This document shows positions 54,001 through 63,000 of a stretch of DNA of 64,000 bases, piece after piece. Location of the stretch: positions 14,063 through 78,062 of the forward strand of contig JBBQZX010000030.1 in assembly GCA_038207335.1 (NCBI GenBank), written 5' to 3'. Each line of letters starts with the position of its first letter. The first letter of the stretch is position 1. This stretch comes from Chthoniobacterales bacterium (lineage in GTDB: Bacteria > Verrucomicrobiota > Verrucomicrobiia > Chthoniobacterales > Chthoniobacteraceae). Made by a program: the position numbers.

Positions 54001-57000
54001 TCGCGGCTGCGAACTCGCCTTTGTGGTGCGCGGGGAAGGCCCGCCGGTGGTCTTCATTCAAGGCGTGGCGGTGCATGGCGGCGGTTGGCGTCCGCAAGTC
54101 GAGGCGCTGTCGCAGCGACACGCGTGCCTCACGTTCGACAACCGCGGGATGGGCCGTAGCCAGCCACGCGGCGACGCAAAAGTGAGCGTCGAGGCGATGG
54201 CCGAAGACACCCTGCGGATCATGGATGCGCAGGGCTGGGCAAGCGCACATCTGGTCGGGCATTCGCTCGGCGGTGTGGTCGCGCTCCACGTCGCGCTGAC
54301 GGCGCGGGAACGCGTGCGGAGTCTCGCGCTGCTCTGCACTTTCGCGCGTGGCCGCGATGCGACGCGACTCTCGTGGCCGATGCTTTCGGCGGGCTCCGCT
54401 CGCGGATCGGTCCGCGACGCTTGCGGCGGCTCGCTTTCCTGGAAATCGTGATGCCGCGCGACCATCTGGCGCGCTGTGATCGCGAGGCTTTGGCGGAAGA
54501 ATTGTCGGCGCTTTTTGGCCATGATCTCGGCGACACGCCGCCGATCACTGGCGCGCAACTCTCAGCACTTCGCGCCTACGACTGCACCCCGCGTCTTGCT
54601 GAACTCGCCGGCCTCCCGACACTCGTCGTGAGCGCGCGGCATGATCTCATCGCGCGGCCGGACAGCGGTCGCGCACTCGCCGCAGGCATCCCCGGCGCGC
54701 GTTACGTCGAGTTGCCGGATGCCGCGCATGCCGCGCCAATTCTCCACGCGCACGAAATCAACGAGCTTCTCGCGACGCACCTCGCCGAGGCGGAGACTCG
54801 CCGCGAACCCTGAATCCAACAGGCTTCGCGGGCTGCTTCACTTCCCCGAAACATTCCCGGCGCAGCGCGCGAGATTCACTTCCGCCGCAGTCGGCGGACT
54901 TCGCGTTCGATCGCGCGGATATTGTCCTCCTTGCTCTCGGAACCGAAATGTTTGACGCGGCGGCCGAAGCGAAGTTCGAGCTGGTGTGAGCCGCCTTCGT
55001 CTCCCGCATCGTGGTAGATGCACTTCGGCGCAGAGACCAATTCCCCGTGCGTCGCGCGCCAGCGCCAGAGCACGAAACCGGTGAAGAGCCGATATTGAAA
55101 CTCGACCGTTTCGCGCGTGACGATGAGTCGCTCCGTCGTCGCGGCGAAGGCGAAGAGCGCGAGGAATGCGCAGCCGAGCGCGGTCATGAAAAGCGAGCCC
55201 AACGCGCTGAGCACGCGACCTTGCGCCAGCAAATATCCGACGCCCGAGAGACCCGAAATTGCCCACCCGATCATCGCGATCACGCCCGCGCTGCCGAGCC
55301 ACCACGAGCCGACCTTCGTCCGGATTTCGAGACGGTCTTCCGACGATTCGATAAGGCAAAGATCCGTCGGCTGGAGAAGCGAAGAAGCGTCGATCACGGA
55401 CTCGTTGCAACACGCGCGGCAGCGCCGGCAAATTCGAAAGTGTGGGACATAACAGAAATTTAAATCACGCGGATCGTCACGTCGCCGGTGATCGGGCTCA
55501 GTTCGATCGGGGTCGCGCCCGGCTGGTAAGTTTTGCCGGCGATTTTCACCGGGCCGATCGAGTGCGCGACGAATCCAAAATGATCGTTCACGGCGGCGCT
55601 CCCGAGCACCTGCCCCGCGATCGTGATCGCGGCGATGCGCGAGAAATTGTTCATGGGCAGCGCTTCGTCATCGGCAGTCGCGGTCAGCAGGTCCACTCCG
55701 GGACCGATGCCGGCCACGATACTGGACGAGATCCAGTCGCCGCCGACAGTGACCGGGCCGAGCGTCGTGTCGGGCACCAAGCCCGTGTAAGAGACGTTGT
55801 GAACGCCGCTCCCGATGAAGACGTTCTCCACGTTGCCATGGACGCTGAGGCTGGCGAATCCGCGCGTGGGGACGCTCGTGGAGGTGTTGAATAGGATCCG
55901 CGTTTCCGCTGACTGGGGCCCACGGAGGTCGCCGCCGACACGGATCGCGCCGACGCCCTCGCTAAATTGGAAAATGGGGATGACTCCTGCCCGCCCCACG
56001 ATGTCGCCGCCGACCGTGATGCTCGGTGCGAACTCCGCGCGGAGATTCGAATCTCCGACGCCCAGACTGCCGAGGATACTGCCGCCGATTTTCACCACCC
56101 CGAGCGAATGGACGGCATCGAGGGAGCCGCCGGTAACATCCGACCGCAACGAACCGCCGATATTGATGAAATCGAAGCTGCCCTTCGTCGCGAAAAAGTA
56201 GCCGGTCACGTCGCCCACCACGTTGACGCTGCCGAATGAGCTCGCGCGGACAATGCTCTCCTCGCTGCCGCCGATTTGAAAAAAGCCGAGCCTCCCCTTC
56301 ACGATCACCCCGCCGCTGTAGGTCCCGGGGCCGACGTGCAATGAGCCGCCGATCCTGATGGCACCTGCGTTCCCGCGGATATCGATCGCGGTGGCCTGCG
56401 TTGTCCCGCCGGTCACCGAGCCGTGGATTTGCAGCGATTGGACATTGCCGCCGACGAAGAACTGACCGTGCGTTAAAGTGCCGCCTTCGCTGGATTCCTG
56501 CACTTCGCCGGCAATCGTCGCAATGCCGAGATCGCCGGCGATGCTGACCTGCGGGAGGATGTTCGTCAGGCCGCTGACGCCGGTGGTTCCGATGATCGAG
56601 CCTTTGATTGCGAGCTTCGCAATCGACGTCGCCTCGAGCCGTCCGCCGCCGAAAGCGCTGCCCATCAAGTCGCCGCCGATGGTGACCAGCGGCGTGTGGC
56701 CGGCAATCACTTCGCCCGCGGGAAAGGAGAGCTGCCCCAATGCTGCACCGCCGCCGATCAGCGAGCCGCCGAGCGTGAAGGAAGGCGCGCCGGTGCCGAG
56801 GTCCACGATCGCCGAGGCGAAGCCGGTGCCGCCCAGGATGTCGCCGCCGACCTTCACGGGCGCTGAAACCGCGCCGAACTTAATCTGCCAAAACTCGGTG
56901 ATGATGGGAAGCTGCGAGCCGCTCCCGCCGCGGATGTCGTGGCCGACGATGAATCCCGCGGCGGTGCCGCCGACGATGATTTGCCCCGAACGATCGCCCA

Positions 57001-60000: not shown

Positions 60001-63000
60001 GCGATCTTGATCGAACCGATGTCGCCCACCACCTCGATCTGGCCGGTATTCGAGGCTCCTCCGACCATCGCCCCCCCGATCGTCACCGTCCCGATCCGGT
60101 ATGCGGCGAGGTAAGCCGACATGTCTCCCTTGATGCTGAGCGTGGTCAAATCACCCACGATCGCGCTGCCGAGCGAGCCGCCGGCTGCTTGCGTCGTCGT
60201 CCCTTCCTTTCCCAGCGAAAGCACTGAGAGTGACTTGAGGCCGGTCGTCTGAATGTCGGCATCTCCCACTTTAATGCGGCCGAGATCGCCGCTGACCTTG
60301 ACCATGCCGAGGTCTTCACCGGTGGCGTTGATGAACCCTACATTGACGTGGCCATCGCCGGTCGCGCTCTTCGTGGCTGTGATCGAGATATTCGCACCGC
60401 TGAATTCAGCACCAAAACTGGCGCCGGAGAGATCGAGCAATTGCAATTGACCGCCGACAACGTGCGCAGCGTTGGCCAGGGCGAAGTTACTACCTTTGGA
60501 GCTGTGGACCGTGACCTTGTCGCCATCGACGTCGGTGAAGTGGAAGACGGCAGCGGGTGCGATTCGGGATTCGAGGATTTCAATCGTGTTCATAATGAGA
60601 GTCGGTGAGTGATGAAGTGTGGGTGCCGTTACTGTGCGTATCCCTTCGCCTTGAGTTCGGCTTCGATGTCGCTGATTGCCTGGTCGATCGTCCGGTTGGA
60701 GTTGTTGGCCGTGATGGTCCGTTTCGCATCGAGGGTGAAGCCGAACGCCTCGTTGCGGAAATATCCCGGCGAGCCGGTGCTCGTGCCTGTGCCGGACAGC
60801 CCGCGAGGCAGGTTCCGCTGCACCAGGATCGGCGTCGTGGCGATCGTTACGGTCGTGTTTGTGCCACGAAAAAACGCCAGCGATTCGCTGTAGTCCGTCG
60901 GTGAATTGTCGTAGCTGCTGCCCGCAGAGATGAGAGACGCTGTATGTCCCGCAGCCAGCGCGGTGGAGCTCATATGGACGGTTCCAGCGGCGCCAGGGAC
61001 GTAGAACTTCCCGGTCTTATTGGCGTAGAAATAAATCAAGCCCACCTGCCGCGCCGTGTAGTCCACGACCAGGTATTGATTGATGACTTTGGGAGACTGG
61101 GATGAGAGGTCGACGGTAACGCGATCGACGCCCCGGTAGATGAGGACTTCCGCGGAGGCCGAGGCGGCAAGGCCGAGGATGGTAATGAGGCTGAGGATGG
61201 TTTTAGTTTTCATGTTGGATTTGGTTTGGTTTTGGTTGGTTTCGGATAGGTGGTTCGTTTGCATGGACACACCTTGTTCCGGGTCTTGAAAACGCGGAAT
61301 ACGCTGTTGGACGTAGCCGTCCGATCCCTGTATTTATCAGGGTTCGCAGCCGATCGAGGGCTTTGGAAGGAGGTCTCCGCGCTCTGCGGAAAATCCGCGT
61401 AAAACGTCCTTCTACGTCCAACGGCGTATGTCGCCACGGCTCTCTGACGGCTTGGTATGAGCCATGAACAAACCGCGCGCGGCACGAGGCTCGACCACAC
61501 CCGCGGAAAGCGGTTGGCTGGCGGTTGTGAACGCCGATGATCCCGATTCCACCCGCCGCGAGCGCCGCGATGAACTGGCGGCGATTCTCGAGACCGCGCT
61601 CGATTGCATCATCATCATGGATGCGGGCGGCTGCATCCGGGAGTTCAATCCGGCAGCCGAGCGCACCTTCGGCTATCGCCGCGAAGACGTGCTCGGCAGC
61701 GTGCTCGCGGAGAAAATCATTCCCCCGGCCTTTCGCGAGATGCATCGCCGCGGACTCGCGCGTTTCGTCGAGACGGGCGAAGGGAAGATGCTCAACCGCC
61801 GGATCGAGGTGCAGGCCATGCGTGCCGATGGTAGCGAGTTTCCGGCCGAGTTGACCATCACCGCGATCCGCAGCGGCGAGCAGCCAGTCTTCACCGCCTA
61901 CCTGCGGGACCTCACCGAACAGAAACAGCTCTTGGAAGCGCTTGAAGCGTCCCGCAAACGCTGGCAGAAGTTCTTCGAACAGGCTCCGCAGAGCGTGGTG
62001 ATCTTTGCGCCCGATGGCACCACCGTCGAGGTCAATGCCGCCTATGAAAAACTGTTCCGGATCACGCGCGCGCAAGTCATTGGATGGAACATCCTGCGCG
62101 ACGAAACGATGATCGCCGCGGGCGCACCACCCGCTATGGCGGCGGCTTTTGCGGGCAAGGTCACGGTCCTTCCGCCACGCCGTTTCGCCTGGCGCACTGA
62201 TTCCGCGCAACCCGCGCCGGAAGGTGAAACTGGCCGCGACTACCATTCGCGTCTCAAGAGCGCGGAAGCCGGGGATTCTGTCTCCATGCAGGAAAAATGG
62301 ATCGGCGCGCTGCTTTATCCCGTGCTCGACGAGCACGGGCGCGTGCTTGAAGTCGTCTGCATTCACGACGACGCGACGGAGAGCGTCCGCAGCGGAAATG
62401 AGATCCGTGAACTCAACGCCAACCTCGAGCAACAGGTGGCTGAACGCACGGCCGCGCTGCACGAATCGCAGGAACGTTTCTACAAACTCTTCCACGCCAA
62501 TCCGGCCATGATGACGCTGACGCGACTGCGCGATCAGCGCCTCGTCGATGTGAATGACGCCTTCTGCCGCGCCTCGGATCACACCCGCGATGGCTCGCTC
62601 GGCCGGACGCTTGACGATCTCGGCATTTGGATCGACGACGTCGCACGAGCAGCTTTCGAAAACAGTCTCACGACTCTCGGATCCATCCGCGACATGGAGG
62701 TCACTTTTCAGTCCGCCACCGGGCGCAAGGATCACGTCCTCTTTTCCGCAGAAGTCATCGAAATGAGCGGCGAGCCGCACATGCTCACCGTCGCGCTCGA
62801 CCTCAATGCCCGGATGCGGGCGGAGGAGGTGTTGCGCGAAGCTCTGGCCAACGAGAAGGAACTGAGCCGCTTGAAAAGCAGCTTCGTATCGATGGTCTCC
62901 CACGAGTTCCGCACGCCGCTCGGGATCATCCTGAGTTCGTCGGAAATCATCGACCGCTATCTCGACACGCTCGACCCGGCGGAGCGTCGCGAGCAACTCG

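What a model noticed while it worked through the whole genome (the two positions that open the first line are those of the whole stretch)
55460..60593. N-terminal EPLExRIAPA tag on 27 large surface-type proteins
Twenty-five called genes and two uncalled reading frames of this genome begin with the same short motif, (I)EPLE-x-RIAPA, within their first 60 residues and nowhere else; the proteins are mostly 600-3,380 aa, beta-helix, FG-GAP, Calx-beta, collagen-like or cyclophilin-bearing, mostly without any family, and have no classical signal peptide (example: g03462 and g03464, C30:69522-74655). I read the motif as a lineage-specific N-terminal export/sorting tag, a sister of the LEPR-XLL head of giant proteins (shared L-E-x-R core and place), that marks the cargo of an M50-HlyD module, most likely the SecA-less one on C18. 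New would be an undescribed sorting signal that defines a secretome of ~27 adh [...]
Evidence so far: Regex [LH]E.RI[AT]PA: 25 of 4,009 proteins, all 25 at residue 2-57; six-frame scan gives 27 hits, the 2 extra at C5:94969(+) (30 nt before the called start of collagen-like g01075) and C7:127980(-). Genes: g00117 g00384 g00385 g00521 g00522 g00825 g00857 g00974 g01051 g01327 g01613 g01673 g01729 g01817 g02267 g02353 g03049 g03065 g03164 g03462 g03464 g03561 g03747 g03945 g03987; two are short calls at frame or contig breaks (g01051 49 aa, g03945 59 aa). IEPLE is the most N-terminus-enriched 5-mer of the proteome (15 vs 0 inside proteins, call 174). DNA pattern YTNGARNNNMGNATHGCNCCNGC: 27 here, 1-27 in 10 of 10 genus mates, 10 in 1 of 2 other genera of the family, 3 in one other genome of the [...]
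(Added by a program. Inside this text positions count along the whole contig: contig position 14,063 is position 1 of the stretch shown here. "Call 12" and the like, gene names such as g00115 and contig names such as C1 are that model's own, and its searches are not shown. The text may have been shortened before it was handed on; [...] marks where a part breaks off. The agent that wrote the report below was given it as the finding of a first reader that could run no searches.)

Follow-up and report, generated by a model that had tools for sequence, protein, structure and literature searches.

The report
Export tag on large surface proteins
Two dozen large surface-type proteins of this Chthoniobacteraceae-type bacterium start with the same ten-residue tag, a variant of an export signal already noted in planctomycetes, and it is probably read and cut off by a little-studied membrane protease and adaptor machine that in many relatives has no dedicated motor next to it or elsewhere in the genome.

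Summary
In detail: ExLExRIAPA occurs 27 times (0.27 expected), always N-terminally; 24 carriers are intact (607-3,380 aa), 3 are broken or cut.

It is not an undescribed signal. It fits the published planctomycete export motif (ExLExRxxP) and occurs on Gemmataceae proteins, although PF07595 and NF012209 miss all 27.

The link to the SecA-less C18 module is well supported: across 121 genomes of the order, 12 have both, 2+2 one, 105 neither; a conserved tagged gene pair abuts the module in 3 genomes. The module's M50 protease carries a leader-binding RRE fold and intact catalytic residues. Its best NCBIfam match is the daptide peptidase, whose leader ELExMEAP has the same register. Short peptides with the same core (EELE[ED]RIAP) lie beside this protease in other phyla (35 of 46 loci), which rules against a structural cap. 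Fourteen genomes with tag and module have only housekeeping SecA, so the motor is unknown.

Against: two genomes have tags but no module found; three carry a tagged gene beside another module type; predicted binding is weak; nothing is experimental. The scan found the module-leader link and the peptides before on other DNA. New variant of a known kind.

The parts
58641..60593 (-). 650-aa tagged, glycine-rich repeat protein (G 20%), no Pfam or NCBIfam family; probable exported cargo
60552..60581 (-). ExLExRIAPA tag, residues 5-14 of the 650-aa protein
55460..57934 (-). 824-aa tagged paralogue (32% identity over 423 columns to the 650-aa protein), no family; probable exported cargo
57872..57901 (-). 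ExLExRIAPA tag, residues 12-21 of the 824-aa protein
57994..58605 (-). 203-aa ORF with two hydrophobic stretches between the two carriers; no Pfam hit; untagged, role unknown
60629..61213 (-). 194-aa ORF with a classical-looking signal peptide directly upstream of the 650-aa carrier; its only paralogue (52%) lies directly upstream of the C51 carrier

Best explanation
ExLExRIAP is an N-terminal leader of the planctomycete-extracellular / LEPR-XLL kind. It is recognised in the cytoplasm by the RiPP-recognition-element (RRE, PqqD-like) domain at the start of the M50-HlyD fusion of the C18-type module (GAF-HlyD, HlyD, RRE-M50-HlyD, TolC, plus DUF3467). The zinc site-2 protease most likely cuts just after RIAP, and the three adaptors with TolC pass the unfolded cargo to the cell surface. 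The ancestral cargo in Chthoniobacterales is a pair of about 1,150 and 1,600 aa; this genus has spread the tag to up to 27 genes. Shown here: the tag, its separability, the RRE fold in a model, the intact catalytic motifs, co-occurrence, gene linkage, and no SecA2 found in 14 genomes. Inferred: binding, cleavage, cut site, export and the energy source (unknown: housekeeping SecA, proton motive force or a folding ratchet).
For: (1) Separable: the domain that follows the tag in the window proteins recurs 6 times inside 4 other carriers with no tag before it; in 71 of 80 GTDB loci matching VEELE[ED]RIAP the motif is followed by 40 residues or fewer. (2) Co-occurrence in 121 genomes of the order: both 12, tag only 2, C18-type M50 only 2, neither 105; family-stratified P about 8e-7, overstated because kin are not independent. 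The 5 genomes with only other M50-HlyD types (120-179 bits) have no tag. Genus: tags in 11 of 11, C18-type M50 in 10 of 11, the miss being 77% complete. (3) Linkage: the tagged pair is directly upstream of the module in G060, divergent from it in G025, directly downstream in L080; in G000 DUF3467 sits directly upstream of the pair on C2. (4) Reader: PqqD profile hit E 0.037; model pLDDT 83.7 matches TbiB1-leader 5v1v (probability 1.00, TM 0.75 on the target) and site-2 proteases 3b4r, 8vjl; HExxH and NxxPxxxxDG invariant in 96 aligned rows. (5) Best NCBIfam match is the daptide peptidase NF041824, 162.8 bits, below its cut-off of 300; the daptide leader ELExMEAP ends at P(-1), the same register as L-E-x-R-I-A-P. 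(6) Of 46 short-peptide loci with 5 kb of room downstream, 35 hold the RRE-M50 gene; 0 of 71 short-peptide loci hold SecA or TolC by my queries. (7) Predicted complex of RRE-M50 with a leader: weak support, score 0.54 against a best control of 0.17 (3 controls); the mark was reached by 116 of 157 solved and 2 of 215 mismatched pairs, but at 0.60 or under by only 18 of the 157 and by both mismatches; runs agree in at least 70% of contacts, partner pLDDT at least 43; it may reflect memory of solved RRE-leader complexes, and my alignment and the zinc ion differ from the calibration. (8) LEPRxLL giants of Chlorobium are reported to reach a partner cell (bioRxiv 10.64898/2026.03.19.712371, passages).
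Against: G048 (19-20 tags, 96% complete, about 120 contigs) has no M50-HlyD, GAF-HlyD or C18-type TolC found; loss and assembly gap could not be told apart. G020 has one true N-terminal tag and no module found. No window-near linkage: in G000 none of the 27 carriers lies on C18. The 250-bit line defining 'C18-type' was set by me after seeing the scores, and the quick tree does not join the two Chthoniobacterales subclades. TolC is not adjacent in most modules outside this family. No energiser was found. In daptides the tested leader binding is to the MpaB RRE, not to the peptidase. No experiment on any RIAPA protein.
Confidence: 0.6

Rival explanations
1. The module only recognises and trims the leader; the cargo crosses the inner membrane by housekeeping SecA/SecYEG and reaches the periplasm or surface by another route.
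For: No ATPase is linked to the module; 14 genomes with tag and module hold only housekeeping SecA; the tag ends in A-P-A, which resembles the A-x-A rule of signal peptidase I (recalled); TolC is often unlinked.
Against: Leaders lack a hydrophobic core; three periplasmic adaptors are kept in every complete module seen and TolC is in the operon in G000, G070, G080, which a pure peptidase would not need.
Confidence: 0.2
2. Tagged proteins use the SecA2-driven C16-type module, alone or interchangeably, as LEPR-XLL giants probably do.
For: G000 has such a module 21 kb from a 24,400-aa LEPR-XLL ORF; tagged genes abut its TolC in G125 and G129.
Against: 16 of 17 tag-bearing genomes queried with SecA2 show one SecA locus only, including single-contig G034; in G129 the gene directly behind SecA2 is the LEPRVLL giant.
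Confidence: 0.12
3. The motif is a shared structural N-cap of paralogous repeat proteins, not a signal.
For: At least 12 of 24 carriers share one repeat and terminal domain family.
Against: That domain occurs internally without the motif; the motif precedes unrelated domains and heads peptides with 1-18 residues behind it.
Confidence: 0.03

Closest known systems
Planctomycete extracellular motif, Pfam PF07595 (Studholme 2004, not seen, cited through PMC8567305 and PMC3343278); Tuwongella form LxLExLExRxxP (Seeger et al. 2021, PMC8567305)
   Same: ExLExRxxP core in 27 of 27; N-terminal; on large Calx-beta or repeat proteins; proposed export signal
   Different: No RRLxx or LxL prefix (0 of 27), fixed IAPA ending, leader as short as 12 residues, host is Verrucomicrobiota; 0 of 27 reach the Pfam cut-off; the paper names no machine in the passages read
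LEPR-XLL domain, NCBIfam NF012209
   Same: L-E-x-R core at the N-terminus of signal-peptide-less repeat proteins; one true member in this genome (24,400 aa, C16)
   Different: 0 of 27 RIAPA heads match; cargo 600-3,400 aa, not giant; travels with the SecA-less module
Secondary SecA_DEAD / M50-HlyD / GAF-HlyD / HlyD locus (Kamneva, Poudel and Ward 2015, PMC4452313)
   Same: Same three adaptor-bearing proteins, TolC sometimes adjacent, no ABC transporter
   Different: The paper proposes SecA2 as motor and names no cargo or RRE in section 17; the C18 type persists in 14 genomes where no SecA2 was found
Daptide RRE-site-2 peptidase MpaP, NF041824 (Ren et al. 2023, bioRxiv 10.1101/2023.03.08.531785)
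   Same: RRE fused to an intramembrane M50 protease; leader ELExMEAP in the same register as LExRIAP
   Different: No HlyD fusion; small modified peptides in Gram-positive phyla with ABC transporters; score 162.8 against a cut-off of 300
Type I secretion system (HlyB-HlyD-TolC)
   Same: HlyD-type adaptors and TolC; large repeat cargo without signal peptide
   Different: No ABC transporter in the locus; N-terminal rather than C-terminal signal; no RTX repeats in 24 carriers

Membership tests
PF07595 Planc_extracel | Score at or above the gathering cut-off (25.5 bits) | tested here: not met
   1 of 27 N-termini gives a weak hit, 14.3 bits, E 0.034; 26 none
Planctomycete export motif (published consensus) | ExLExRxxP core at the N-terminus | tested here: met
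   27 of 27
Planctomycete export motif (published consensus) | LxL or RRLxx prefix before ExLE | tested here: not met
   0 of 27 with L-x-[LI] before the first E; I alone in 21
Planctomycete export motif (published consensus) | Carriers found at the cell surface or envelope | not testable with these tools
   No proteome or localisation data for this organism
NF012209 LEPR-XLL | Score at or above 17 bits | tested here: not met
   0 of 27; the C16 giant scores 31.5
Kamneva 2015 module (C18 copy) | GAF-HlyD, HlyD and M50-HlyD in one operon | tested here: met
   C18:85182-90258
Kamneva 2015 module (C18 copy) | Secondary SecA_DEAD protein | tested here: not met
   None in the C18 locus; G000 has one on C16; none found in 14 genomes with tag and C18-type module
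RRE / PqqD domain | Three strands plus three helices matching solved RREs | tested here: met
   Model and Foldseek matches to 5v1v, 5sxy, 6jx3; profile hit to 3g2b at E 0.037
RRE / PqqD domain | Binds a leader as a fourth strand | tested here: inconclusive
   Weak pass, 0.54 against best control 0.17, no interface given
Peptidase M50 (site-2 protease) | HExxH and NxxPxxxxDG zinc ligands | tested here: met
   Invariant in 96 rows; fold match 3b4r E 7e-4; Pfam score 24.5, just under the 27.2 cut-off
Daptide peptidase NF041824 | Score at or above 300 bits | tested here: not met
   162.8 bits
Type I secretion system | ABC transporter with the adaptor and TolC | tested here: not met
   None in C18:76000-113690 by ORF listing and Pfam of the module genes; no conserved ATPase neighbour in 27 loci
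Type I secretion system | RTX repeats in cargo | tested here: not met
   No HemolysinCabind hit in 24 carriers

The most novel reading that the evidence does not exclude
A single RiPP-style leader code (ExLExRIAP, cut after P) is read by an RRE-M50-HlyD protease-adaptor that, with neither an ABC transporter nor a SecA2, exports everything from 4-15-residue peptides (Gemmatimonadota) to 3,400-residue surface proteins (Chthoniobacterales): a distinct secretion route that joins peptide maturation and large-protein export, with an energy source still to be found.
Probability: 0.35. Interest if true: 0.85.

Novelty: new variant of a known kind. Interest (0 to 1): 0.55.

Why it matters
The planctomycete export motif has been proposed since 2004 and the M50-HlyD module since 2015; in my ten searches of the held library I found no paper that joins them. 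This variant gives a concrete, testable pairing: a 10-residue tag, a candidate binding domain, a candidate protease, a predicted cut site, and a two-gene ancestral cargo. It names 24 probable surface proteins, 15 without any Pfam family, that current HMMs miss. The absence of SecA2 in 14 genomes, one a single contig, questions the published idea that SecA2 is the motor. The short-peptide versions offer small substrates for an in vitro assay.

Tried and rejected
SecA2 search over the order with E<=1e-120 was too strict and showed only G000; repeated on 17 chosen genomes. A loose ExLExRxxP DNA pattern gave no more hits than its reversed control; 19 of the 20 loci read were chance, the other being the G051 tag. 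Dropped as chance after reading the context: G047, G052, G063, G066, G094 (a 25-codon frame), G102, G107, G057, G075, G109; G021 and G093 were dropped unread as they lack the motif. Four single hits outside the order in a 301-genome phylum sample were internal or off-frame. DUF3467 as a SecB-like chaperone: model pLDDT 67.9, best matches COMM/PC4-like at Z up to 5.9, inconclusive. A shared C-terminal signal: the terminal domain is in about half of the carriers and also occurs internally, so it is treated as structural. No overlap between the C47 and C37 contig ends. No phage match. No RNA holder listed. Promoter and terminator scan at chance level. Aminopyruvatide precursors are unrelated (PMC11117315, passages). 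ESM Atlas gave unnamed clusters only. The careful tree did not finish; the quick tree is cited. Two supplementary files of PMC8567305 gave no hit for my terms, so its Table S9 and Figure 7 logo were not seen; bioRxiv supplements were not seen and may bear on the daptide cut site.
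Full report
Observation. The genome G000 (5.17 Mb, 53 contigs, 94.7% complete) is Chthoniobacteraceae-like by the names of close homologues. 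All 27 read ExLExRIAPA with synonymous codon variation. 24 head intact ORFs of 607-3,380 aa; one is cut by a contig end and two are remnants. The window holds two carriers, 58641-60593 and 55460-57934 on the minus strand, neither with a Pfam or NCBIfam family. 9 of 24 carriers have Pfam hits, in unrelated extracellular-type domains. Leaders have no hydrophobic core and no carrier has a 19-residue window above 1.83.

It is a tag, not a cap. The domain that follows the tag in the window proteins appears 6 times inside 4 other carriers, each time without the tag. In GTDB the same motif heads very short peptides: of 80 loci fetched (of more than 123 matches) for VEELE[ED]RIAP, 71 have 40 residues or fewer behind the motif, and the tail after P is hypervariable.

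Relation to known signals. None of the 27 reaches PF07595 or NF012209 cut-offs; one gives a weak PF07595 hit. A 24,400-aa ORF on C16 is a true LEPR-XLL protein. Seeger et al. 2021 (PMC8567305; passages and section 19 read) give RRLxxExLExRxLLA as the Rhodopirellula export motif of Studholme 2004 (not seen) and LxLExLExRxxP on 52 Tuwongella proteins, 20 detected by proteomics. The core ExLExRxxP is met by 27 of 27; the prefix by none. The exact ExLExRIAPA also heads ORFs in planctomycete-labelled records such as L234, L241, L251, L252, L268, L293. So the signal is a known kind in a form that the HMMs miss.

Two candidate machines. G000 has two M50-HlyD modules: C16:95874-106343 with SecA2 and a divergent TolC, 21 kb from the LEPR-XLL giant, and C18:85182-92134 (GAF-HlyD, HlyD, M50-HlyD, TolC) without SecA. 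Kamneva et al. 2015 (PMC4452313; abstract, passages and section 17 read) described the SecA2-linked locus, proposed SecA2 as motor and named no cargo there. Across 121 genomes of the order, after reading the context of single hits and dropping 7 of 21 pattern-positive genomes as chance (the 10 hits of G080 were not read one by one), 14 have tags; 14 have a C18-type M50 at 250 bits or more, a line I drew after seeing the scores; 12 have both, 105 neither. Fisher P 7e-13 and family-stratified P 8e-7 overstate, as kin are not independent, but the match also holds inside genera g13, g15 and g42. Of the two module-only genomes, G051 has a planctomycete-type RxxP tag beside its M50. In the genus, 11 of 11 have tags and 10 of 11 the C18-type M50. 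In a 301-genome phylum sample only G000 and G003 had true tags.

Gene linkage. A tagged pair of about 1,150 and 1,600 aa is conserved in G000, G025, G034, G046, G060, G068, G087, G098 and L080, with the first gene also in G111. It lies directly upstream of DUF3467, GAF-HlyD, HlyD, M50-HlyD in G060, divergent from it in G025 and directly downstream in L080. In G000 the locus is split, and DUF3467 stays directly upstream of the pair on C2. Among 80 GTDB loci of related M50s, mostly Planctomycetota, 11 hold SecA2, 27 DUF3467 and 10 a tagged gene. A quick tree places the C18 type with planctomycete proteins and apart from the C16 type (support 92), without joining the two Chthoniobacterales subclades.

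Results against. G048 has 19-20 tags and none of the module genes was found; its flanks are not syntenic with G070, so loss and assembly gap remain open. G020 has one true tag and no module found. Tagged genes abut the C16-type TolC in G125 and G129 and a third module type in G128.

Mechanism. The first 100 residues of the M50 protein model as three strands and three helices and match RRE-leader complexes; the zinc ligands are invariant. RREs bind leaders as a fourth strand (PMC11117315, passage). The best NCBIfam match is the daptide peptidase, a lead taken from earlier scan notes. Ren et al. 2023 (passages) give the leader motif ELExMEAP, numbered to P(-1), show that L(-7) and M(-4) are needed for the MpaB RRE, and state that the RRE-peptidase MpaP removes the leader. 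L-E-x-R-I-A-P falls in the same register, so I infer a cut after P. M50 leader peptidases are also reviewed in PMC10885120 (passages). In 3 of 3 Gemmatimonadota genomes checked, peptides ending in the exact motif lie directly upstream of GAF-HlyD, HlyD and RRE-M50-HlyD, and each genome shows one SecA; 35 of 46 short-peptide loci with room hold the M50 gene. A predicted complex gave weak support only: 0.54 against a best control of 0.17; 116 of 157 solved and 2 of 215 mismatched pairs reach the mark, but at 0.60 or under only 18 of the 157 and both mismatches; contacts agree at least 70%, partner pLDDT at least 43; likeness to solved RRE-leader pairs may explain it.

The motor. Queried with the C16 SecA2, 16 of 17 tag-bearing genomes show a single SecA locus of 988-1,101 codons; 14 of them have the C18-type module, including single-contig G034. 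No ATPase is conserved beside module, TolC or cargo pair in 27 loci. Most are draft genomes, so this is 'not found', not 'absent'. DUF3467 gave no clear fold match.

Literature. Ten searches of the held library found no paper that links this motif to the module or reports it in Verrucomicrobiota; subscription journals are largely missing. Also read in passages without a link: bioRxiv 10.1101/2023.11.21.568195, PMC10952558, PMC12288469, PMC3343278. A 2026 preprint (passages) reports LEPRxLL giants of Chlorobium in the partner cell and proposes TolC and HlyD, with no mention of M50. The scan itself noted the LEPR-module link, the RRE and the Gemmatimonadota peptides before on other DNA; these notes are leads, not support.

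Verdict. Real, and more than chance. A new variant of a known, untested export signal, most likely read by the SecA-less RRE-M50-HlyD module (confidence 0.6). What this finding adds is the HMM-invisible RIAPA secretome, genome-level independence from SecA2, and one motif shared by large proteins and tiny peptides. Interest 0.55.

Noticed in passing
L347:4275-9781 (G422), L348, L349; L352-L431: Peptides of about 50 aa ending in EELE[ED]RIAP plus a short variable tail lie upstream of GAF-HlyD, HlyD, RRE-M50-HlyD in Gemmatimonadota; no Pfam or NCBIfam family. Already noted by the scan.
   Followed up: partly
L353, L355, L358, L365, L402, L416, L430: Arrays of up to five short peptides with the same leader and 28-52-residue Gly/Asn/Pro-rich tails beside an RRE-M50 gene in Verrucomicrobia- and Acidobacteria-labelled records; no GAF-HlyD hit nearby. 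A possible further peptide class.
   Followed up: no
G000:C16:74818-1616 (-), L017/L033: A 24,400-codon ORF with a LEPR-XLL head, 21 kb from the SecA2 module; in G129 its orthologue directly follows SecA2.
   Followed up: partly
window 60629-61213 (-) and L024:3424-4020 (-): Both copies of a 194-aa protein with a classical-looking signal peptide lie directly upstream of a tagged gene (2 of 2).
   Followed up: partly
G000:C5:55861-56106 (-): A second DUF3467 gene, 14 kb from the broken tagged gene at C5:70452.
   Followed up: no
G000:C37:38027-29124 (-): A 2,968-codon ORF related to the C8, C10 and C24 carriers starts at a contig end without a tag; its start may be missing. Untagged fragments of the window-type family lie at C21:53733-54514 and C51:4383-6700.
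   Followed up: partly
L045 (G068:C37) and L049 (G032:C34): SecA-less modules that include a methyltransferase gene; in L045 next to a 1,281-aa protein with a planctomycete-style head.
   Followed up: no
L033:13936-19998 (-), G000:C16:87932-94441: A 2,169-codon ORF with a PEP-CTERM hit near its start followed by TSP3 and FG-GAP repeats; possibly two genes in one frame.
   Followed up: no
window 50330-51238 (-), 48222-49547 (+), 51258-52565 (+), 61464-63557 (+): By sequence reading only: an esterase-like protein, a hydrolase-like protein, a serine beta-lactamase-like protein and a PAS histidine kinase; ordinary, not scanned.
   Followed up: no
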